A stretch of DNA of 64,000 bases, taken from the human T2T-CHM13v2.0 reference genome, Homo sapiens. Positions 2,396 through 33,944 of the stretch are shown here, in pieces. Position 1 is the first letter of the stretch. Each line of letters opens with the position of its first letter. The notes under the pieces are model-generated. The model ran no database searches and was not told the origin of the DNA. It saw only the letters and a program-made list of their open reading frames with translations. The translations under genes were made by a program, and so were the position numbers. Location of the stretch: the NCBI RefSeq assembly GCF_009914755.1, contig NC_060947.1; one strand, 5' to 3'.

Positions 2396-4609
<2,214 letters not shown>

Positions 4610-4778
4610 CTACACATACACTCTGAGCTGAAGCATCTTATCCATCTGTCAGAGGCTGGTTCAAGTTGTAGGCTTGAAGGCTGGGATTTGAGTCTTGACC
4701 TAGGCGAAAACAAGGACCAGGGCCTGGCCAGGAAAGGATCAAAAGGATACTGTTCACAACAACCCTTCCTATGAGTAG

Positions 4779-5128
<350 letters not shown>

Positions 5129-5959
5129 CATGTTCATACTCTTTCTTCTTTTTTAATTTTCTTCTTCTTCTTATACTTTAAGTTCTGGAGTATATGTGCA
5201 GAACTTGCAGGTTTGTTACATAGGTATACATGTGCCATGGTGGTTTGCTGCACCCATCAACCTGTCATCTACATTAGGTATCTCTCCTAGTGCTATCCCT
5301 CCTCTAGCCCCCTACCCCCTGACAGGCCCCAGTGTGTGATGTTCCCCACCCTGTGTCCATGTGTTCTCATTGTTCAACTCCCACTTATGAGTGAGAACGT
5401 GAGGTGTTTGGTTTTATGTTCTTGTGTTAGTTTGGTAAGAATGATGGTTTCCAGCTTCATCCATGTCCCTGCAAAGGACTTGAACTCATCCTTTTTTATG
5501 GCTGCATAGTATTCCATGGTGTATGTGTGCCACATTTTCTTTATCTAGTCTATCATTGATGGACATTTGGGTTGGTTCCAAGTCTTTGCTATTGTGAACA
5601 GTGCCACAATAAACATACATGTGCATGTGTCTTTATAGTAGAATGATTCATAAACCTCTTGGTATATACTCAGTAATGGGATTGCTGGGTCAAATGGTAT
5701 TTCTGTTTCTAGATCTTTGAGGAATCGCCACACTGTCTTCCACAATGTTTGAACTAACTTGCACTCCCACCAGCAGTGTAAAAGCATTCCTATTTCTCCA
5801 CATCCTCTCCAGCATCTGTTGTTTCCTGACATTTTAATGATCCCCTTTCTAACTGGCATAAGATGATATCTCATTGTGATTTTGATTTACATTTCTCTAA
5901 TGACCAGTGATGATGACCCTTTTTTTTCATGTTTGTTGGCTGTATAAATGTCTTCTTTT

Positions 5960-6277
5960 GCTGGGTGTGGTGGCTCACGCCTGTAATCCCAGCACTTTGG
6001 GAGCCTGAGGTGGGTGGATCACGAGGTCAGGAGTTCAAGACCAGCCTGGCCAAGATGCTGAAACCGCGTCTCTACTAAAAATACAAAAATTAGCCAGGCA
6101 TGGTGGCAGGCACCTCTAATCCCCACTACTTGGGAGGCTGAGGTAGGAGAATCACTTGAACCCTGGGTGGGTGGAGGTTGCAGTGAGCCAAGATTGCACC
6201 ACTGCATTCCAGCCTGGGTGACAGAGTGACACTCCATCTCAAAAAATAAATAAATAAAATAAAATAAAATAAAAATA
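5960..6277 (+). mobile_element. Alu inserted in L1 ORF2
   Basis: Sense Alu with TSD aaatgtcttctttt on both sides. Confidence 0.95.
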
Positions 6278-9200
6278 AATGTCTTCTTTTGAGAAATGTC
6301 TGTTCATATCCTTCGCCCACTTTTTGTTGGGGTTGTTTGTTTTTTTTCTTGTAAATTTGTTTAAGTTCTTTGTAGATTCTGGATATTAGCCTTTGTCAGA
6401 TGGATAGATTGCAAAAATTTTCTCCCATTCTGTAGGTTGCCTGTTCACTCTGATGATAGTTTCTTTTGCTGTGCAGAAGCTCTTTAGTTTAATTACATCC
6501 CATTTGTCAATTTTGGCTTTTGTTGCCATTGCTTTTGATGTTTTAGTCATGAAGTTTTTGTCCATGCCTGTGTCCTGAATGGTATTGCCTTGGATTTCTT
6601 CTAGGGTTTTTATGGTTTTAGGTCTTACATTTAAGTCTTTAATCCATCTTGAGTTAATTTTTGTATAAGGTGTAAAGAAGGGGTCCAGTTTCATTTTTCC
6701 GTATATGGCTTACCAGTTTTCCCAACACCATTTATTAAATAGGGAATCCTTTTCCTATTGCTTGTTTTTGTCAGGTTTACCAAAGGTCAGATGGTTGTAG
6801 ATGTGTGGTGTTATTTCTGAGGCCTCTATTCTGTTCCATTGGTCTATATATCTGTTTTGGTACCAGTACCATGTGGTTTTGGTTACTGTAGACTCGTAGT
6901 ATAGTTTGAAGTCAGGTAGCGTGATGCCTCCAGCTTTGTTCTTCTTGCTTAGGATTGTCTGCTATGTGGGCTCTTTTTTGGTTCCATATGAAATTTAAAG
7001 TAGTATTTTTCTAATTGTGTGAAGAAAGTCAATTGTAGCTTGATGGGGATAGCATTGAATCTATAAATTACTTTGGTCATTATGGCCATTTTCACGATAT
7101 TGATTCCTCCTATCCATGAACATGGAATGTTTTTCCATTTGTTTGTGTCCTTCTTTAATTTGTTGAGCAGTGGTTTGTAGTTCTCCTTGAAGAGGTCCTT
7201 CACATCCCTTGTAAGTTGTATTCCTAAGTATTTTATTCTCTTAGTAGCAATTGTGAATGTTGTGAATGGGAGTTCATTCATGATTTGGCTCTCTGTCTAT
7301 TACTGATGTATAGGTATGTTTGTGATTTTTGCACATTAATTTTGTATCCTGAGACTTTGCTGAATTTGCTTATCAGCTTAAAAATATTTTGGGCTGAGAT
7401 GATGGGGTTTTCTAAATATACAATCATGTCATCTACAAAACAGAGACAATTTGACTTCCTCTCTTCCTGTTTGAGTACCCTTTATTTCTTTATCTTGCCT
7501 GATTGCCCTGGCCAGAACTTCCAATATTAGGTTGAAGACGAGTGGTGAGAGAGAGCATCCCTGTCTTGTGCCAGTTTTCAAAGGGAATGCTTCCAGTTTT
7601 TGCCCATTCAGTATGATGATGGCTGTGGGTTTGTCATAAATAGCTCTTATTATTTTGAGATACATTCCATCAACACCTAGTTTATTGAGAGTTTGTAGCA
7701 TGAAAAGGTGTTGAATTTTGTCAAAGGCCTTTACTGCATCTTTTGAGATAATCATGTGGTTTTTGTCATTGGTACTGTTTATGTGGTGGATTACAGTTAT
7801 TGATTTGTGGATGTTGAACCAGCCTTCCATCCTAGGGATGAAGCCGACTTGGTCATGGTGGATAAGCTTTTTGATGTGCTGCTGGATTCGGTTTGCCAGT
7901 ATTTTATTGAAGATTTTTGCATCGATATTCATCAGGGATATTGGCCTGAAATTTTCTTTTTTTTGTTGTGTCTCTGCCAGGTTTTGGTATAAGCATGATG
8001 CTGGCATCATCAAATGAGTTAGGGAGGAGTCCCTCTTTTGCTATTGTTTGGAATAGTTTCAGAAGGAATGATAACAGCTCCTTCTCTCTCTTCTTCTTCA
8101 TTATTCTGGCTAGCAGTCTATCTATTTTGTTGATCTTTTCACAAAACCAGCTCCTGGATTCATTGATATTTTGAAGGGTTTTTTTTGTGTATCTATATCC
8201 TTCAGTTCTGCTCTGATCTTAGTTATTTCTTGTCTTCTGCTAACTTTTGAATTTGTTTGCTCTTGATTCTCTAGTTCTTTTAATTGTGATGTTAGGGTGT
8301 CAACTTTAGATCTTTCCTGCTTTCTCTTGTAGGCATTTAGTGCTATAAATTTCCCTCTAAACACTACTTGAGCTGTGTTCCAGAGATTCTGGTACGTTGT
8401 ATCTTTGGTCTCATTGGTTTCAAAGAATTTATTTATTTCTGCCTTAATTTCATTATTTACCCAGTAGTAATTCAGCAGCAGGTTGTTCAGTTTCCAGTAG
8501 TTGTGCGTTTTTGAGTTAGTTTCTTAATCCTGAGTCCTCATTTGATTGCACTGTAATCTGAGAGACAGTTTATTACAATTTCTATTCTTTTGCATTTGCT
8601 GAGGAGAGTTTTACTTCCAATTATGTGGTGAATTTTAGAATAAGTGTGACCTGGTGCTGAGAAGAATGTATATTCTGTTGATTTGGAGTGGAGAGTTCTG
8701 TAGATGTCTATTAGGTCCACTTGGTCCAGAGTTTAGTTCAAGTCCTGAATATCCTTGTTAATTTTCTGTGTCATTGATCTGTCTAATATTGACAGTGGGG
8801 TGTTAAAGCCTCCCACTATTATTGTGTAGGAGTCTGAGTCTCCTTGTAGGTCTCTAAGAACTTGCTTTATGAATCTGGTTTCTCCTGTATTGGGTGCATA
8901 TATATTTAGGATAATTCGCTCTTCTTGTTGCATTGTTCCCTTTACCATTATGTAATGCCCTTCATTGTCTCTTTTGATCTTTGTTGGTTTAAAGTCTGTT
9001 TTATCAGAGACTAGGATTGCAACCCTTGTTTTTTGTTGTTGTTGTTGCTTTTTTTTTGTTTTTTTGTTTTTTGTTTGTTTTTTTTTTGCTTGGTAAATAT
9101 TCCTCCATCCCTTTATTTTGAGCCTATGTGTGTGTTTGCACGTGAGATGGGTCTCCAGAATACAGCACACTGATGGGTCTTGACTCTTTATCCAATTTGC

Positions 9201-9780
9201 CAGTCTGTGTATTTTTACTGGGGTATTTGGCCCATTTATATTTAAGGTTAATATTGTTATGTGTGAATTTGATCCTGTCATTATGATGCTAGCTGGTTAT
9301 TTTCCTGTTAGTTGATGCAGTTTCTTCATAGTATCGATGTTCTTTGTAATTTGGTATGGTGGCTGGTACTGGTTGTTCATTTCCATGTTTAGTGCTTCTT
9401 TTAGTCACTCTTGTAAGGCAGGCCTGTTGGTGACAAAATCTCTCAGCATTTGCTTGTCTGTAAAGGATTTTATTTCTTCTTCGCTTATGAATCTTAGTTT
9501 GGCTGGATATGAAATTCTGGGTTGAAAATTATTTTCTTTAAGACTGTTGAATGTTGGCCCCCACTCTCTTCTGGCTTGTAGGGTTTGTGCAGAGAGATCT
9601 GCTGTTAGTATGATGCGCTTCTTTTTGTGAGCAACCTGACCTTTCTCTCTGGCTGCCCTTAACATTTTTTTCCTTCATTTCAACCTTGGTGAATCTGATG
9701 ATTATGTGTCTTGTGGTTGCTTTTCTCAAGGTATATCTTTGTGTTGTTCTCTGTATTTCCTGAATTTGAATGTTGGCCTG

Positions 9781-10293
9781 TGCCAAGACCAACTCGGTCA
9801 GGGAGACCCTAACCCAGTGGCGCTAGAGGAATTAAAGACACACACACAGAAATATAAAGGTGTGAAGTGGGAAATCTGGGGTCTCACTGCCTTCAGAGCT
9901 GAGAGCCCCAAACAGAGATTTACCCATGTATTTATTAACAGCAAGCTAGTCATTAGCATTGTTTCTATAGATATTAAATTAACTAAAAGTATCCCTTTTG
10001 GGAAACGAAAGGATGGGCCAAATTAAAGGAATAGGTTGGGCTAGTTAACTGCAGCAGGAGCATGTCCTTAAGGCACAGATCACTCAGGCTATTGTTTGTG
10101 GCTCAAGAATGCCTTTAAGAGATTTTCTGTCCTGGGTGGGCCAGGTGTTCCTTGCCCTCATTCCCGTAAACCCACAACCTTCTGGCATGGGTGTTAGGGC
10201 CATTATGAACATGTTACAGTGCTGCAGAGATTTTGTTTATGGCCAGTTTTGCTGCCAGTTTATGTCCAGATTTTGGGGGGCCTGCTCCCAACA
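9781..10293 (-). mobile_element. Solo MER9-type LTR (HERV-K HML-3 group) inserted in L1 ORF1
   Basis: 513 bp; on minus begins tgttgggagcaggcccccc and ends ...tcttggca (TG...CA termini); 6-bp TSD GGCCTG at 9775 and 10294; L1 ORF1 resumes across it. Family name recalled from consensus. Confidence 0.88.
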
Positions 10294-12569
10294 GGCCTGT
10301 CTCGCTAGGTTGGGGAAGTTCTCCTGGATAATATCCTGAAGAGTGTTTTCCAACTTGGCTCCATTCTCCCGGTCACTTTCAGGTACACCAATCAAATGTA
10401 GGTTTGGTCTTGTCACATAGTCCCATATTTCTTGGAGGCTTTGTTTGTGCCTTTTCATTCTTTTTTCTCTAATCTTGTCTTCACACTTTATTTCATTAAG
10501 TTGATCTTCAAACTCTGATATCCTTTCTTCTGCTTGATTGATTTGGCTATTGATACTTGTGTATGCTTCACGAAGTTCTTGTGGTGTGTTTTTCAGCTCC
10601 ATCAGGTCATTTATGTTCTTCTCTAAACTAGTTATTCTAGGTAGCAATTCATCTAGCCTTTTTTCAGGATCTTATCTTCCTTGCCTTGTGTTAGAACATG
10701 CTCCTTTAGCTTGGAGGAGTTTGTTATTACCCACCTTCTGAAGCCTACTTCTGTCAATCTGTCAAACTCATTCTCCATCCAGTTTTGTTCCTTTGCTGGC
10801 AAGGAGTTGTGATCCTTTAGACGTATTCTGGTTTTTTGAATTTTCAGCCTTTTTACAGTGGTTTCTCCCCATCTTCGTGGATTTATCTACCTTTGGTCTT
10901 TGATGTTGGTGACCTTCGGATGGAGTTTCTGAGTGGACATCCTTTTTTGTTGATGTTGATGCTATTACTTTCTGTTTGTTAGTTTTCCCTCTAACAGTCA
11001 GGCCCTTCTGCTGCAGGTCTGCTGGAGTTTCCTGGAGGTCCACCCCAGACCTTATTTGCCTGGGTATCACCAGCAGAGTCTGCAGAACAGCAAAGATTGC
11101 TGCCCGTTCCTTCCTCTGGAAGCTTTGTCCCAGAGGGGCAACCACCAGATGCCAGCTGGAGCTCTCCTGTATGAGGTGTCTGTCTGCCCCTGCTTGGAGG
11201 TGTCTCTCAGTCAGGAGACATGGGCATCAAGGACCCACTTGAGAAGGCAGTCTGACCCTTAGCAGAGCTCCAATGCTGTGCTGGGAGATCTGCTGCTCTC
11301 TTCAGAGCCAGCAGGCAGGGACATTCAAGTGAGCTGAAGCTGTGCCCACAGCAGCCCCTTCCCCCAGGTGCTCTGTCCCAGGGAGATGGGGGTTTTATCT
11401 ATAAGCCCCTGACTGGGGCTGCTGCCTCTTTTTCACAGATGCCCTGCCCAGAGAGGAGGAATCTAGAGAGACTGTCTGACTACAGTGGCTTTGCTGAGCT
11501 ATGGAGGGCTCTGCCCAGTTGGAACTTCCCCAGGGGCTTTGTTTACACTGTGAGGGGAAAAACGTCTACTCAAGCCTCAGTAATGGTGGACTCCCCTCTC
11601 CTCACAAAAGCTCCAGTGTCCCAGGTTGACTTCAGACTGCTGTGCTGGCAGTGAGAATTTCAAGCCAGTGGATCTTAGCTGCTGGGCTCCATGGCTGTGG
11701 GATCCACTGAGTTAGACCATTTGGCTCCCTGGCTTCAGCCCCCTTTCCAGGGTAGTGAATGGTTCTGTCTCACTGGTGTTCCAGGCACCACTGGCGTATG
11801 AAAAAAAAACTCCTGCAGCTAGCTCAGTGTCTGCCCAAATGGCTGCCCAGTTTTGTGCTCAAAACCCAGGGCCCTGGTGGCATAGGTACCCGAGGGAATC
11901 TCCTGGTCTGTGGGTTGTGAAGACCATGGGAAAAGCATAGTATAGGGGCCAGAGTGCACCGTTCCTCATGGCAAAGTCGCTCACAGCTTCCCTTGGCTAG
12001 GGGAGAGAGTTCCCCAACCCCTTGCATTTCCCGGGTGAGATGATGCCTCACCCTGCTTTGGCCCGCCCTCCGTGGGCTGCATCCACTGTCTAACCAGTCC
12101 CAATGAGATAAACCAGGTACCTCAGTCGGAAATGCAGAAATCTTCTGCCTTCTGTGTTGATCTTGCTGGGAGCTGAGGACTGGAGCTGTTCCTATTTGGC
12201 CATCTTGCCTGAGTCTAGCCATGTTCATATTCTTAATGCCCATCAATGAAGTGGGTGCTTTCATCTCTACTTGTTAGATGAGGAAATTAAGTCTCAAGAA
12301 GGAAGAGGCCCTCCAAGGCCACAGTGAGTGAGTATCAAAACTGACTACAAATCAGGCCTTGTAAACTCAGGTCTGTGGCTTCCAAACTACTATGATTTTC
12401 CCCAAATTTGTCCTCTGTCAGTTGCCCATGGCAGAACTGCTCTCAGAGATAATCCCCACTCACCTTATCTGAGCCCTGGAGATTTGGGGGAGAATGGACA
12501 TCACTAAAGGAGGGCAGGGGCAGAAGGAGCACTTTGGCTGACACTACCCAGGCGAGGACGTGGCTGCAG

Positions 12570-12708
12570 CATTTCCACAGAAGTGGTACAGTCTCCTCTG
12601 CAAGATAGGCCTCTTGGAGGAATTCATTTTTCTGAAGCTCAAGAAGCCTGGACAAATCTTGTCAGCCCTATAACCTTCAGCCATGGCATTTATCTCATAC
12701 ATAACCTG
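12570..12708 (+). pseudogene. MROH-like exon A
   Basis: After ctgcag: ISTEVVQS/LCKIGLLEEFIFLK/QEAWTNLVSPITFSHGIYLI with two frameshifts (/); probable donor gtacc at 12709. Confidence 0.65.
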
Positions 12709-13482
12709 GTACCAAGAGGGCCTGGGAATATCACCCCCTCCCCTGAGGAAGTAAATAGGGAGTAGCAGCTCGTTCAATAAACAGACGCAGGGAGTCATTG
12801 AGCACCGTTCAATGGAGTGGAGAAAGAGAGGAGCAGAAAAAGAGAGGAAACCCTGACGGTCAGCCTCTGTATCCTGGCTGTAACCCCAGGATCCATGAGA
12901 AGGATTCAACGGGGCTGGCTGAAGAGTCAGTTCTTTGTTATACTTCTCTATTCATTTCTTCTCTGGATCCTAAAGCCACCCCTGACCCCTATTCATTGAA
13001 CAAGGGACAACCTGGCTGTTTTCTTACTCCTCTTGGTGCCCATGGGCAAGATAGAGGTAGTATGAGGGCCCGATAATCTTGTATCTTAGATGTGAAAAAA
13101 CGAAGGGATGTGATGTCCCCAGGGTCTACCCTAGGGGAACAAAAGCATTAGACATTTTACTCCTTGAAATTGCAAGACAGATCTAAATGTTGGGTCACAG
13201 GCAGGACCCTGGCCATTAGCAGCTACTCTTGGGCTCTGCTTGGCTCAGAGAGGGAGCCAGCAGGGGCCTCAGTGTAGGAGTTTGGGGTCAGATCTGAGAA
13301 CCTTCAGCTTCCCTATAGAAAAAAAAAAAAAACAATCTCCCAAGTCCCTCCCCAAAAGCTCCTGCAAGAATTCTTCAGGCTGCCACTGTCCCCAGGCCAT
13401 ATTCAGCTATGGAGACAGTATACCAGCCTTCCTAAATGCTGGTTTTGATACCAGTCTTATGGCTCAAGTTTCTCTGTTCCAG

Positions 13483-13597
13483 GGCCATGGTGGAGTTCTA
13501 CTGTCTCCAGATTTCAGGAATTCTCTTGTATTCCATTATCATATACCAGACTGAGGATAAGAGGCACAGAATTGCAGCCATGGTCTTCTTCACCAAG
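13483..13597 (+). pseudogene. MROH-like exon B (open frame, intact splice sites)
   Basis: ttccag|G GCC ATG...ACC AAG|gtaaga; 115 nt; (R)AMVEFYCLQISGILLYSIIIYQTEDKRHRIAAMVFFTK. Confidence 0.85.
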
Positions 13598-14153
13598 GTA
13601 AGAACTACCTCCACCCCACAGAAGCCAGGAGCTGGCCTAGGACAGACATGTATATCTTCCTCTAAATAAAACTTGCTTTTGTGCAGGACATTGCTCATTG
13701 TCTGGATTGTTGTATGACTCTAACCAGCCATTGACTCTGGGACTTGGTATAGTCATCTAGAAAATGAGGGGTTCAGACTAGAGAATATGGAAATCCATAG
13801 TATTTAAGACAAGAAGTTTCCTGGGGAGATCCCGTGGAATTTTTCTTGCCCTCCTGAAACCTTTTATCTCCTTGAAGAGAACAGATGCCAAGCATTTGTT
13901 CCTACTCTGGTAGGGACACACTTGGGATGACCCAGGTTACGGTTAGCAGGTGTAAGTCTTATATAGTTCCTTCAGTTCACCAGCATATGGTTCCAGTGGT
14001 CATTTATCCTCTGAGATCAGGGTAGTTGTGGGTTGGTAACAGGGCCACTGAGGGCAGAAGTGCCTCCTGCTTTGGGGAGGACTCTCTCAGCTGGCAGAAT
14101 ATGAGCTGGAAAGCCTTTCAGGGGCCCAAAACCTCAGGGACTGACTCTTCCAG

Positions 14154-14300
14154 CATTTTGAAACTCTCTGGTGTCCAAGTTGTTGTTTTGAGACTCGTTT
14201 CTGAGCTGTCTGTGTAAAGGCATCTGTGCCAGGAGCATGATGGCGAGGCTGGTGAGTCTGCATGGCTTCAACAACATCTTCCACACCCTGGGTATATTGG
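14154..14300 (+). pseudogene. MROH-like exon C
   Basis: After ttccag: VSKLLF*DSFLSCLCKGICARSMMARLVSLHGFNNIFHTL; in-frame stops; 3' boundary uncertain. Confidence 0.65.
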
Positions 14301-14932
14301 GTGCACAGGGCCCAAATGTGGGGTGAGATTCTGAGCAGAGGGAGGAAGGGAGGAATGCTCTAGCACCACTACCTCAGACCTTCCCTTAGCAAAGGCCATC
14401 CTCTAGGAATGGGGAAGCTGGGGAAGGTGGATTTTCTCATCACCCTCCTCCCCTTGCTGGGAAAGCATTAGTGTGCTCCATGATAGGCAGTGCGGCTTAG
14501 TGGAAAGACCCCTGGCCTTTCTGTTAATATCTGGGGGATCTTAGGCCTCCTCTGGGCACTTGAGTTAGATGCTTAACACTTGAAAGAACCTTGGTCTGGG
14601 ATTCAGTCACCCTGGATTCTCACTACAATTCTGTCCCTAACATACAGTGTGACACTGGGAAAATATCTTCATTTCCCTGGAACTTATTTTTCCCATCTGT
14701 AAAAGGTTTGTACTATTAATAGATGCCTAGCACTTTGCTTCAAAAGTCAGGACACCTAAGTTCTAGTCTCAGTTCCAATTTGCTACCAATTTGTTGTGTG
14801 ACCTTGTTCAAATCACTTTGGGCCTCATGTAAGTTTTCCCACCTGTCAGTGGAGAGGGATGCATTTGGATCCAGGGATCTCTGAGGTGCCTTCCTGATCT
14901 AACATTCCATGTGTCTGTGCTTGATGAACCAG

Positions 14933-15108
14933 AGTAGTTTCCATCAGGCCTAGCTGCCAGCCCTTCTGAATGCATTCTTTGAGACCAATGAGTAGGTGAT
15001 TTTGGCCAGCATGAGTGTCCTGTCAGACATATTCTACCCATTGGGTAAGTAACGCATGGGAACCTGGGCCTTGACATCACTGTTTCCTCAAAGTCCTTCT
15101 TTGATGAT
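14933..15108 (+). pseudogene. MROH-like exon D
   Basis: ccag|SSFHQA*LPALLNAFFETNE*VILASMSVLSDIFYPLGK*RMG/LGLDITVSSKSFFDD; three stops, one frameshift, donor reads GC rather than GT. Confidence 0.82.
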
Positions 15109-15367
15109 GCAAAATGTGCAAAGGGAATGACTGCATGTGTTTTTGGGGGTACCTGGGGCTCTTCAAATGTGTTCTGTGGAGGTTGTAGGTGGGTGAACCA
15201 AGTGTACAGAGCATGGGTACAGTGGAGAGATGATGACTCACACTCTGCCTCTGAGACCCAGGTCCACATGCCACCCTGGGAGGCTTTGTCTGACCCTCAC
15301 CACTACCACCTTCCCTCCAAGGCAGAATCAAATTAGCTCCCAGAGTCTTTTCCCCAGCCCTCTAGTG

Positions 15368-15769
15368 CAGGGGTCATCAAAATATTTCTGTAAAAGGTCA
15401 GAGAGTAAATATTTTCATCTTTGTGGGCTATATGGTCTCTATGACAATGGTTCAACTCTGCCATTGCAACCACAGACAACATGTAATTGAATGGGCATGG
15501 CTATGTGCCAATAAAACTTTATTTTCCAAAACAGGCTGGGTGCGGTGGTTCACGCCTGTAATCCCAGCCACTTGGGAGGCCAAAGTTGAACCCGGGAGGT
15601 GGAGATTGCAGTGAGCCAAGATTGTGCCGCTGCACTCCACAGCCTGGGTGACAGAGTAAGACTCTGTCTCCCAAAAAAAAAAAAAAAAAAAAAAAAAAGA
15701 AAATCAAACAAAAGAAAACTTTATTTTCCATCTAGACTTGGTCCCCAGCCTATAATTTTCCAACCCCTG
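15368..15769. mobile_element. MER58-like hAT-Charlie DNA transposon with nested deleted Alu (about 15534-15715, +)
   Basis: cagggg...cccctg terminal inverted repeats; 8-bp TSD (c/t)tctagtg. Confidence 0.8.
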
Positions 15770-16289
15770 TTCTAGTGTAATACTGAGCCCTATGAATTAT
15801 GGGCATTTTGTGTTCACGTTTGTTTCCTCTACCACACCAAGGGCAGGGATAGTGACTTAGTCATCATTTCTTTAACCTCAGAGGCCCACCCAGGGACTGG
15901 AAATTTTCAACTCAACTAATATTTATTAAATACCTACTATGTCTTCAGCTCCCCTCTGCCACCCCGCTATGTCCCAACATCATACACATGCAGAGAACTG
16001 AAACATGGGAAATGTCTGTTGAATTGTTTCACTTAAAACATGCATAAATAATTTTTGAAGCTGGGTGATGGGTTCATGGGCCTTCATTTTACTATTCTTA
16101 CTACTTCTGCATAGTTTTGAAAACTTTCATATGGAAAAGTTTTAAAAAAGAAAAAGAGTATAAGACAAAGAGCCAGAAGGAAGGATATCACACAGACCTA
16201 GGAGAACTTGCAAAGCAACATAAAGCATTAGTACTTGCAAACCAATCTGCTGAGTACATGTAGGAAGTACTGGATGTGTATAGGTAAGC

Positions 16290-16670
16290 ACAGAGGGTGA
16301 GAGTCTGTGTGAATGAGTGTGGTTGTGTGTCTCTGTGTCTGTATATCATTATGTGAGTGTGTAAAGAAACATAGTTGTGTGTGTTTGCAAAGGAGGCTTC
16401 ATTGTGACAGATTGTGGACATGTTTATGTCCAAAGGAGATGAATATGAATGTTCTGAGTGTGGCTAGATGTATATGTACAGGTTTGAGTGTATGCATATG
16501 TAGTGTGTGAGAGTCTGTATGTCCAGGTGTGTGCACTTGTGGATATTTTATGATAGTGTATGTGTGCGTCATACACACATACATCTTCGGGGGAGGTAGG
16601 TACATATGTTTCTGATCAAGGAGCAAGTTGCATGTGAGTATTTAATGGTAAACTTGTGTGTGTGTGTGCC
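16290..16670. repeat. Degenerate TG-rich low-complexity tract
   Basis: Dense gtgt/tatg motifs. Confidence 0.75.
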
Positions 16671-16832
16671 AAAGGAGTAATGGTGACTTACTCAGGGCTG
16701 TGAATCCGAGTGTACTATGTCCTCTACTGCTTGCCTGGGGAGCAGAGGTTGAGTGCTACAGAAATAGGCTCTCATGGCTGGGCTGGGGCCCAGGCACACA
16801 AGGCCCTAGACACATAGCCTTAATCTGCACAG

Positions 16833-16995
16833 GAGGAAGGCTGTGTCCACGCAAGAACTGTCGTCATGTTTAGAAACTTGGTGGGTAGTCTGGAGAACAA
16901 AGGGAATGTGACCTTCTTCCATGATCAGATTTGCCACAGGTTTATTCCCCTGCTCTTTCTTCCACCTCATAGATAAGAATAAGGAAGTGGTGAAG
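16833..16995 (+). pseudogene. MROH-like exon E
   Basis: cacag|EEGCVHARTVVMFRNLVGSLENKGNVTFFHDQICHRFIPLL/FHLIDKNKEVVK|gtgaac; one frameshift. Confidence 0.82.
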
Positions 16996-17063
16996 GTGAA
17001 CTCACAGCCCTCAGCTAATTTCTCCTATGTTCCCCTCTCCCTGCCCCCTTCTTCCCCTTGCAG

Positions 17064-17153
17064 CACCCCCAGTGTCTATGAGCAGCAAGCTCCAAGTTGG
17101 CCTCTAAAGTCACTGGATGCTCTGTTCCCTGTGGTTGTCTCAGGCCTGTTACT
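17064..17153 (+). pseudogene. MROH-like exon F (weak homology, strong splice sites)
   Basis: Long pyrimidine tract + ttgcag acceptor and gtaagc donor; its 3' frame (SWPLKSLDALFPVVVSGLL) joins exon G in phase. Confidence 0.55.
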
Positions 17154-17347
17154 GTAAGCAGGGATGCCTGGGCAAAGCCCACCTCTATTCCTGGAGCTCA
17201 GCTCACTGAAAACCTAAGTTGGTTGATACCCACCCAACTGCCTTTTCGCTTGTCTCCTCCAGGAATCAAAGGTCTCTTGTCCTATCCTATCCCTTTTCCT
17301 TTCTCCCCTTTTTATTTCCCCTGGTTAGGACTGGGCTAGAGGCCCAC

Positions 17348-17740
17348 TATCTTAGTCCATTTTGCATTGCTATACCTAAGACTGGGTAATTTATAAAGAA
17401 AAGAGGTTCTGCAGAGTGTACAAGAAGCATGGTGCTGGAATCTGCTTCTGGTAAGGACCTCAGGAAACTTTCAATCATGGCAGAAGGCAAAGGGGGAGCA
17501 AATGTGTCACATGACGAGAGAGGGAGGAAGAAGGTGAGGGGGTGTCAGGCTCTTTTAAACAACTAGCTTCCACGTGAATTAATAGAGAGAGAACTGAATT
17601 ATTACCATGAGGATGACGCCAAGCCATTCCTGAGGGATCCACCTCCATGACTCAGACACTTCCCATTGGGTCCTAACTCCAACACTGGGGATCAAATTTC
17701 AACATGAGATTTGGAGAGGACAAAAAGCCAAACTGTATCA
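17348..17740 (-). mobile_element. MaLR solo LTR (MST family)
   Basis: tatcttagtcc...gggtaatttataaagaaaagagg...aatcatggcagaaggc...aaactgtatca; 5-bp TSD-like cccac/gccac. Confidence 0.85.
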
Positions 17741-18202
17741 GCCACCTTACCCCCTCCTCCCAGAAAACAGAAAAAGAGGCCAGTGCATGTCTAGGGGGAG
17801 AGGAATTGTTGGAGGATTATCAGAGCCTGGGGCCAGAGCACTTGCCTGACTCCCTCACATCAGCTCCCTTTTCTTGCTCCACAGACTGTCAAACTCACCT
17901 TCTTCCACTGTGCCTATTTCCTCCAGTTGTCAGAGCTCTAGAAGTTCTTTTGCCAGATGGCCTGGGATAGAGACCTGTGGGCTCTGCAAATGTCTGAAAG
18001 TCCTTTATAAGGGTGGATTTAATGGTTGAGACTGGACAAGGTTTTGGTCAAGGGTCTGGGCTTTGGATTCTCTTTTGCCTCTCTGGGATCCCTGGGGCCC
18101 ATGCTAAGGACCCATGACATGGCAACCAGGGTGCCTGACTTGGCCCAAAGATAACTGAGCCTTAGTCCTGAGTTCAAGCCTGTCTTTGTCTCCTTTATAT
18201 AG

Positions 18203-18315
18203 GCAGAAAATGATGTTCATGTTCTGCAAAGTGGACATTTTCCTCTACCAGGCCATCAACCATATTCATTGCAAGCAAGCTGATTTAGGCAGAGCTGCAG
18301 GCAGTCTGTATGTTG
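18203..18315 (+). pseudogene. MROH-like exon G
   Basis: tatag|G QKMMFMFCKVDIFLYQAINHIHCKQADLGRAAGSLYV; the donor expected from homology appears mutated (at instead of gt); an alternative gtatgt lies at 18308. Confidence 0.7.
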
Positions 18316-18962: not shown

Positions 18963-22880
<3,918 letters not shown>

Positions 22881-32080: not shown

Positions 32081-32887
<807 letters not shown>

Positions 32888-33115
32888 GTAACTCATTAAC
32901 AGTGTGTGGCACCATGCTAGACACTCCTACCCCCGAAGGACGCTCCCAAAATGCCACAATGGCTACACACTTGGCATGGTGCTTGGGACTCGAATCTATA
33001 GACTTCCGGCACAATTTGAGGGCATCCCTCAAAAAGGGAAGCCAAGGATGGAAGTATAGTTAGAGAGGTGGGGATGCTGGCAGATGGGATTTCTGACAAG
33101 CATCTTTTTCTCTAG

Positions 33116-33944
33116 TGCCTTTCCCTGTTCTCCACACTGTTTGCCATGTGTACCCTGGGCATCTTCTTCCAGCAGACGGAAGTCCAGCTGGATTACTTCT
33201 CTGGCAACTTCACTACTATGGAACATGGGATGGGGGGTGGGGGAAAACCAGCAGCAGCAGTAGCAGCAGAACAACGGTTTTGTTTACCACTGTGCCCCAC
33301 ATCTGCTATACCTGGAGCTGCTCTGTCCCCTTTGGTTTGGAACTGACCTCTTTGCCTGGACCATTTCCTGCCCGAATAAGGTGTGCTTCCTGTGTAGCCC
33401 TCTCAATCTAGCTGATATCTTCTGTTTGTTGCCTGCATTGGTGGAATTGGTAGTAGGTGACAAGGCTGTATGGCAACTCTATCTTAGCCTAATCCTTGGG
33501 GCCATTCATTCTCTCTATGTCCTCAAGCTGGTTCGTCTCCTGGGCTTCCTTAAAAAGTCCTTGGCCATGAGAGTCCTTGTTCATACACTCCATTCTTCCT
33601 GGAAAGAGGTGTGTGCCTTTCTCCTGATTTGGGTGGCTGATATCTTATCCTTTGGCTTGCTCTTCCTCTATGGGGAGCTCTTAGGCATGTGTATCTCAGG
33701 TCAAAGTGAGCCCCACTTGGGAGACATCTTTACATGTCTCTGGTGGACTGTCATAACTCTCACCACTGTCGGCTAGGGAGATGTCTATCCCCTGTCTGCT
33801 CTGGGCCAGCTCACTGCTGCTGTCACAGCCACTGCAGGCATGTGCACTGGTATCTTGTTGGTTCCTGTGCTCCTGGTCCACTTCCAGTGCTATTATGCTG
33901 TGGCCCTGGCTCGCCAGAAACTAAGGCCCAGTAGGACCCTGTAA
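33116..33944 (+). pseudogene. Kv3-like transmembrane exon (S1-S6, pore)
   Basis: ttctctag| S1 CLSLFSTLFAMCTLGIFFQQTE; S2 LLYLELLCPLWFGTDLFAWTISCPNK; S3 PLNLADIFCLLP; S4 LGAIHSLYVLKLVRLLG; MRVLVHTL; S5; pore TTVG*GD (TAG 33774-33776); S6 ILLVPVLL; terminal TAA 33942-33944. Confidence 0.93.

What the first reader, a model, noticed from the sequence alone, without database searches (positions are those of the whole stretch)
12570..18315. Hidden multi-exon MROH-family (HEAT-like repeat) unprocessed pseudogene
Seen: seven collinear exon remnants with splice signals and largely compatible phases, visible in the ORF track only as fragments. Knowledge: translations track the MROH5-type C-terminal region as recalled (RAMV..C.QI; SL.G..NI; LL..FF..SD..SFF.D; PLL.HL.D; I.L.QA). 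Inference: a lost MROH paralogue with more lesions than the channel, so probably an older loss. Its 5' exons are upstream, degraded or displaced by the L1.
Basis: partly seen in the sequence, partly recalled or inferred. Interest (0 to 1): 0.72.

Follow-up and report, generated by a model that had tools for sequence, protein, structure and literature searches.

The report
Lost X-linked MROH gene, marsupials retain
This stretch of the human X chromosome holds the broken, unannotated remains of a HEAT-repeat (MROH-family) gene whose closest intact relatives are in marsupials and platypus, so it likely marks a separate family member that placental mammals lost long ago and that databases likely mislabel as MROH5.

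Summary
Confirmed and extended. The seven exon remnants (12,564-18,315, + strand) are real. Two more follow (19,345-19,420; about 22,016-22,105) and three lie upstream of the window, between LAS1L and the window start. A bilby protein annotated 'MROH5' aligns collinearly with E 7.65e-27. All 8 internal exons match human MROH5 exons in position, phase and, after indels, length. The locus is dead: 6 stops, 9 frameshifts, 6 of 17 splice sites non-canonical, one upstream exon split by an LTR-like insert. It is not a copy of MROH5: 39-46% identical to marsupial/platypus proteins, 27-30% to primate MROH5. Trees give (platypus,(remnant, marsupials)) at 98-99% support, and an AU test rejects remnant+MROH5 (p=0.0025). 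The platypus gene lies on chromosome 6, the homologue of the therian X. No intact placental orthologue turned up, by word-limited searches. Best reading: a unitary pseudogene of an unnamed X-linked MROH lineage, likely lost around the placental radiation. Gene-order synteny and the date are not shown. New member of a known kind; moderate interest.

The parts
12564..12708 (+). Exon a, bilby aa ~911-958; 145 nt vs 144 in MROH5; acceptor GG (lost), donor GT; three frameshifts (-2, -1, +4)
   Evidence: score 75.0
13483..13597 (+). Exon b, aa 958-996; 115 nt as in MROH5; AG/GT intact; no stop or frameshift
   Evidence: score 109.2
14154..14296 (+). Exon c, aa 997-1044; 143 vs 144 nt; one frameshift, one stop; donor TT (lost)
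   Evidence: score 62.7
14933..15108 (+). Exon d, aa 1045-1103; 176 vs 177 nt; three stops, one frameshift; donor GC
   Evidence: score 114.8
16833..16995 (+). Exon e, aa 1104-1155; 163 vs 156 nt (one extra codon, 4-nt insertion); AG/GT intact
   Evidence: score 79.2
17885..18006 (+). Exon f, aa 1156-1196; 122 vs 123 nt; two stops, one frameshift; donor AT (lost)
   Evidence: score 77.4; 43.6% to human MROH5 exon
18203..18315 (+). Exon g, aa 1197-1231; 113 vs 103 nt (7-nt tandem duplication, one extra codon); donor AT (lost)
   Evidence: score 73.1
19345..19420 (+).
   Evidence: 63% over 19 aa within the E 7.65e-27 chain; score 42.8
22016..22111 (+).
   Evidence: 40% to platypus aa 1307-1336, E 0.012; score 45.2; sequence

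Best explanation
The locus is a dead, intron-bearing MROH-family gene on human Xq12, and it is likely the placental orthologue of an intact ~1,290-aa HEAT-repeat gene of marsupials and platypus rather than a copy of human MROH5. Shown: 12 collinear exon remnants over about 35 kb (9 in the window, 3 upstream), MROH-type intron positions and phases, disabling lesions, closest kinship to the marsupial/monotreme proteins, single copy in the genome. Inferred: an MROH duplication before the monotreme-therian split gave an X-lineage gene (platypus chr6, therian X) and a chr8 lineage (MROH5 plus a pseudogene at chr8:143.71 Mb); the X-lineage gene was inactivated in situ, probably around the placental radiation, then decayed neutrally, was invaded by L1, Alu, LTR-like elements and the FRMD8P1 retrocopy, and lost its aa 676-909 and aa 1-560 exons beyond recognition. 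It cannot encode the full protein today. The living orthologue is predicted to be a non-enzymatic HEAT-solenoid scaffold; a testis role is a guess from recalled expression of related MROH genes.
For: phmmer of one window frame against 1.84 billion representatives: 5 hits at E<=0.001, the only full-length one P0003 (E 5.7e-11), a bilby 'MROH5' with PF21047, PF23210, PF23227. tblastn of P0003 vs window E 7.65e-27, 8 chained pieces; primate MROH5 proteins give only 1-2 pieces at E 0.003-0.04. 8 of 8 internal exons agree with MROH5 in junction and phase. Identity 39-46% to 8 marsupial rows, 43% platypus, 27-30% to 6 primate MROH5 rows, 24-27% to 8 turtle rows. Trees: (platypus,(remnant, marsupials)) 99/98 and 98/99, the species-tree order. 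AU rejects remnant+MROH5 (p 0.0025) and MROH5 inside a therian clade (p 0.016). Site patterns over 293 columns with turtle: remnant+marsupial 11, remnant+MROH5 2, remnant+turtle 6; marsupial+platypus 11 vs 1 and 1. Platypus gene on a 51,493,492-bp sequence = chr6, the homologue of the ancient therian X. Four marsupial copies lie on 85-103 Mb sequences, near the ~84 Mb ancestral marsupial X. DNA single copy.
Against: Neighbours of the marsupial/platypus gene (LAS1L, MSN) were not seen; marsupial X linkage is inferred from sequence length only, and the lengths were not found in print. The remnant (0.88-0.91) and MROH5 stem are long branches; the AU test shares any long-branch pull. Without turtle, the quartet remnant/MROH5/marsupial/platypus is unresolved (5, 5, 4 columns of 319). 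MROH5 was sampled from primates only. Absence of an intact placental copy rests on word-limited searches: one search also missed primate MROH5, and one search had 1 candidate. Intron positions are shared family-wide (MROH2A, MROH1, MROH7 junctions seen), so they prove family, not orthology. The date rests on crude lesion counts (d about 0.13-0.22) and recalled neutral branch lengths.
Confidence: 0.78

Rival explanations
1. Out-of-X relocation: the X gene was duplicated at DNA level to 8q24.3 in the placental stem, the copy became fast-evolving MROH5/MROH4, and the parent decayed. The remnant would be a duplicated pseudogene and marsupial 'MROH5' a true co-orthologue.
For: In the human genome the bilby protein's best intact match is chr8 MROH5 (12 of 19 matches); no marsupial or monotreme chr8-type gene appeared; identical exon lengths; MROH5 has a long stem (0.85).
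Against: AU p 0.0025 and 0.016; site patterns 11:2 against; human MROH5 is no closer to bilby than to platypus (40% each); adding the chr8:143.71 Mb pseudogene and MROH1 left the topology unchanged.
Confidence: 0.1
2. Same orthology, later loss: the gene survived the placental radiation and was lost independently, for example in early primates; some placentals still carry it.
For: Stop-codon count alone gives d about 0.13, no more than the recalled neutral distance to the boreoeutherian ancestor; an unnamed ORF P0005 shows a relative of exon c whose translation matches the intact exon end; placental genomes could not be searched directly.
Against: 0 of 17 relatives of the bilby C-terminus are placental although platypus (56%) and turtles (33-38%) were found; splice-site decay gives d about 0.22; end branch 0.88 vs 0.13-0.31 for marsupial tips.
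Confidence: 0.1
3. Chance resemblance of unrelated DNA, or a processed retrocopy.
For: No Pfam hit from the remnant itself; two 3' exons and one upstream exon score near the controls.
Against: E 7.65e-27 chain; seven exons far above all controls; introns at MROH positions.
Confidence: 0.01

Closest known systems
Marsupial and platypus proteins annotated 'maestro heat-like repeat family member 5' (P0003 bilby, P0006-P0012, P0013 platypus)
   Same: 39-46% identity over 357 columns, collinear from aa 562 to the C-terminus, one clade at 98-99% support; platypus copy on the X-homologous chr6
   Different: They are intact; the human locus is disabled and lacks detectable exons for aa 1-560 and 676-909
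Human MROH5 (chr8, 142.55-142.62 Mb in this assembly) and the pseudogene at chr8:143.71 Mb (probably MROH4P; name recalled)
   Same: Same family and domain order; same 8 internal exon junctions and phases; near-identical exon lengths
   Different: Only 29% identical; separate clade (99/97); other chromosome; grouping with the remnant rejected
Named MROH family of 11 members (MRO, MROH1, 2A, 2B, 3P, 4P, 5-9; list in PMC5391009, passages read)
   Same: HEAT-like repeats, conserved C-terminal intron positions, two named pseudogenes already
   Different: Family searches of this genome put the Pfam-detectable members on chr1, 2, 5, 8, 18, 20; none on X. This would be a twelfth, unnamed lineage
Ancient unitary pseudogenes of the placental X (e.g. 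the decayed protein genes around XIST, HSF3; recalled, not checked)
   Same: Intron-bearing gene fossils at the ancestral site, intact in non-placental relatives
   Different: No sign here of reuse as a non-coding RNA; none was tested

Membership tests
MROH family | Significant similarity to MROH proteins | tested here: met
   phmmer E 5.7e-11; tblastn E 7.65e-27
MROH family | Pfam Maestro/MROH2B-like HEAT domains | tested here: inconclusive
   No hit from the decayed pieces (0 of 11; 0 of 9; absent from family searches); the orthologue has PF21047 E 5.9e-66, PF23210 E 6.8e-39, PF23227 E 4.1e-10
MROH family | Conserved intron positions and phases in the C-terminal region | tested here: met
   8 of 8 internal exons match human MROH5
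MROH5 (chr8 gene) copy or orthologue | Groups with placental MROH5 in a tree | tested here: not met
   AU p 0.0025
Unitary pseudogene | Keeps introns (unprocessed) | tested here: met
   Introns of 0.2-2.6 kb between exons a-i
Unitary pseudogene | Disabling lesions | tested here: met
   6 stops, 9 frameshifts, 6 of 17 splice sites non-canonical in exons a-i
Unitary pseudogene | No intact copy of the same lineage in the same genome | tested here: met
   Bilby protein vs own genome: 19 matches, 4 at this locus, 13 on chr8, 1 chr20, 1 chr3 (a stricter first look, so a floor); DNA single copy
Unitary pseudogene | Intact orthologue in outgroup species by phylogeny | tested here: met
Unitary pseudogene | Orthologue at the syntenic position (between LAS1L and MSN) | tested here: inconclusive
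   Chromosome level only: platypus chr6; marsupial X inferred from sequence length; neighbours not visible
Unitary pseudogene | Lesions shared across placental orders (single ancestral loss) | not testable with these tools
   No other mammalian genomes are held

The most novel reading that the evidence does not exclude
Reciprocal loss: early mammals had two MROH5-like genes; marsupials and monotremes kept only the X-lineage gene, placentals only the chr8 lineage, so 'MROH5' across mammals is hidden paralogy. The X copy died once in the placental ancestor, beside a lost Kv-type channel gene 10 kb away, making the LAS1L-MSN interval a small graveyard of ancestral X genes.
Probability: 0.3. Interest if true: 0.62.

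Novelty: new member of a known kind. Interest (0 to 1): 0.46.

Why it matters
It adds a gene fossil missing from RefSeq to the list of genes that placental mammals lost from the X, points to a living, unstudied gene in marsupials and platypus that can be tested for expression and function, and warns that proteins named MROH5 in those species are likely not orthologues of human MROH5. The mechanism, in-place decay of a gene, is ordinary; no present-day function in humans is suggested.

Tried and rejected
Pfam scans of window translations found no MROH domain. Genome-wide search with the multi-exon window frame found only itself above noise (9 matches, best other E 0.36; one was the matching MROH7 exon). 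A candidate exon at 1323-1358 (score 34.6 vs control 31.5) was rejected as chance in repeat-like DNA. No exons clearly above control for aa 1-560 (-22,700 to -12,480) or aa 676-909 (-3,100 to 12,560). The intact exon b is not taken as a sign of selection: with about 15 coding lesions in 1.1 kb, one clean 115-nt exon among nine is expected (my arithmetic). P0001, a 77-aa ORF over exon b and its intron, found on 132 short contigs without a name, is a mechanical ORF call, not evidence of a protein. PDB sequence search with the bilby protein: 0 hits. The protein atlas gave only MROH clusters without useful taxa. A search of print for the marsupial sequence lengths gave nothing relevant. No fold or complex prediction was run; it would not change the verdict. 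Earlier scan findings were not available.
Full report
Observation. Pfam saw nothing in them (0 of 11 pieces; 0 of 9 with an MROH family). A phmmer search with one frame holding several exons (12572-15106) against 1.84 billion representatives gave 5 hits at E<=0.001; four are short ORFs and one is a 1,286-aa protein, P0003 (E 5.7e-11), with PF21047, PF23210 and PF23227, named 'MROH5' of the bilby. Its C-terminal relatives were 17 proteins: 8 marsupial entries of 7 species, platypus, and 8 turtle entries; none placental (only the 7,994 best word-sharing candidates were scored, and primate MROH5 was also missed). tblastn of P0003 against the window chains 8 pieces at E 7.65e-27; five other relatives were run, four giving E 7e-17 to 2e-23 and the turtle protein E 0.005. 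A frameshift-aware profile scores exons a-g at 62.7-114.8 against control maxima of 39.2 and 41.4 and 29.8-36.5 in 12 shuffles.

Anatomy. Human MROH5 exons were read from chr8. All 8 internal exons of the remnant start and end at the same codon positions and phases, and lengths agree once indels are counted: 145/144, 115/115, 143/144, 176/177, 163/156, 122/123, 113/103, 76/75 (three boundaries printed were off by 1-2 nt and were corrected). Exons h and i extend the gene to about 22,110. Lesions in a-i: 6 stops, 9 frameshifts (counted by eye), and 6 of 17 splice sites non-canonical (acceptors a, i; donors c, d as GC, f, g). In 24 kb fetched upstream there are three more exons, for aa 562-674, at window places -12468..-12385 (score 80.8; tblastn 62%, E 2.64e-06), -12007..-11914 (score 37.2, within the whole-profile control range, above the restricted control 25.9) and -4290..-3121; the third is split by a 955-bp LTR-like insert with a 6-bp target-site duplication, its halves scoring 60.7-70.8 together against a null maximum of 29.7 in 150 windows. 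The insert looks like a MaLR (THE1/MST) element by recall; no repeat library was at hand. FRMD8P1 lies between these exons, that is, inside an old intron. Exons for aa 676-909 and 1-560 were not found clearly above control; the first gap coincides with the L1-rich 12 kb before exon a. The gene points away from LAS1L, head to head. The 3-kb core is single copy.

Which gene. Over 357 columns the read-through (X at breaks) is 39-46% identical to marsupial rows, 43% to platypus, 27-30% to primate MROH5 and 24-27% to turtles. A tree of 19 rows (6 of 25 redundant or gappy rows left out: a second devil entry, chimp, four turtles) gives (platypus,(remnant, marsupials)) at 99/98 with MROH5 outside. A second tree of 17 rows, dropping four near-duplicates and adding partial MROH1 and a chr8:143.71 Mb pseudogene, gives the same clade at 98/99, remnant+marsupials 95/89, and MROH5 with the chr8 pseudogene at 99/97. 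AU tests reject remnant+MROH5 (p 0.0025) and MROH5 inside a therian clade (p 0.016). Site patterns agree with a turtle outgroup (11 vs 2 vs 6) but are flat without it (5, 5, 4). Long branches remain a caveat.

Where the intact gene lies. The platypus record is on a 51,493,492-bp sequence; a supplement row of PMC8081666 gives that as the end of chr6 (one supplement row and one passage seen). PMC2453332 states that the ancient therian X is homologous to platypus chromosome 6 (passages). Four marsupial records lie on 85.2, 89.9, 99.5 and 103.0 Mb sequences and the bilby's on 704.7 Mb; PMC11965985 gives about 84 Mb for the ancestral marsupial X (passages) and PMC11239497 describes the bilby X as fused to an autosome (passages; supplements searched without a hit, one file unreadable). 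X linkage in marsupials is thus likely, not shown; gene order was not seen.

How it came about. Most likely an MROH duplication older than the monotreme-therian split, then loss of the X-lineage copy in placentals and neutral decay. Crude clocks give 0.13 (stops) and 0.22 (splice sites) substitutions per site and 11 indels in about 1,130 nt; against recalled neutral branch lengths this brackets the placental radiation, loosely. A 40-aa search for placental orthologues returned 1 of 1 candidates, the human ORF itself, which is weak evidence. For the living gene, HEAT repeats predict a scaffold without catalytic site; Dictyostelium Mroh1 is a lysosomal regulator linked to WASH (PMC5450189, listing and start of abstract only) and MRO is expressed in reproductive tissue (PMC5391009, listing and passages). 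A testis role for this gene is a guess.

In print. RefSeq lists no gene here. PMC5391009 lists 11 MROH members; family searches of this genome placed Pfam-detectable members on chr1, 2, 5, 8, 18 and 20 (gene names assigned from recalled positions). Searches that returned no paper on this locus, judged from listings: MROH/pseudogene/maestro/LAS1L, MROH5/marsupial/X/platypus, MROH5+testis, unitary pseudogene/eutherian/marsupial/MROH, LAS1L/MSN/synteny/pseudogene/Xq12 (0 papers), maestro heat-like repeat/phylogeny, genes lost in the eutherian ancestor. GENCODE, HGNC, subscription journals and genome-wide gene-loss tables in supplements were not seen and may already list it.

Verdict. New member of a known kind; interest 0.46.

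Noticed in passing
L055-L057, G000:C23:63,971,532-63,980,879 (upstream of the window; window places -12468 to -3121): Three further exons of this same gene (aa 562-674), listed here because they lie outside the window; the third is split by a 955-bp LTR-like insert with a 6-bp target-site duplication and carries a 66-bp tandem duplication.
   Followed up: yes
window ~32,500-33,900 (+): Voltage-gated potassium channel-like pseudogene: T1/BTB_2 at 32531-32896 (E 2.7e-10) and Ion_trans at 33264-33773 (E 5.9e-16), in different frames; unannotated, just inside an intron of upstream-starting MSN transcripts.
   Followed up: partly
L059/L060, G000:C8:143,710,800-143,718,000 (-): A second MROH5-like gene remnant with stops and frameshifts on chr8, sister to MROH5 in the tree (99/97); probably MROH4P (name recalled).
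   Followed up: partly
window ~2,400-12,210: Long antisense L1 whose 5' end lies about 350 bp before exon a, with an LTR-like insert at about 9,785-10,290 (family by recall); sits where the missing aa 676-909 exons would be.
   Followed up: no
window ~17,340-17,745: MaLR-like LTR in the intron between exons e and f, resembling the element that splits the upstream exon (family by recall).
   Followed up: no
P0002, P0004, P0005: Unnamed short ORFs 90%, 79% and 53% identical to the exon c / following intron frame, suggesting remnants of this locus in other mammals; P0005 matches the intact exon end where the human donor is lost.
   Followed up: no
P0014-P0021: Turtle proteins also annotated 'MROH5' or unnamed are only 712-774 aa and form a third clade outside both mammalian lineages.
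   Followed up: partly
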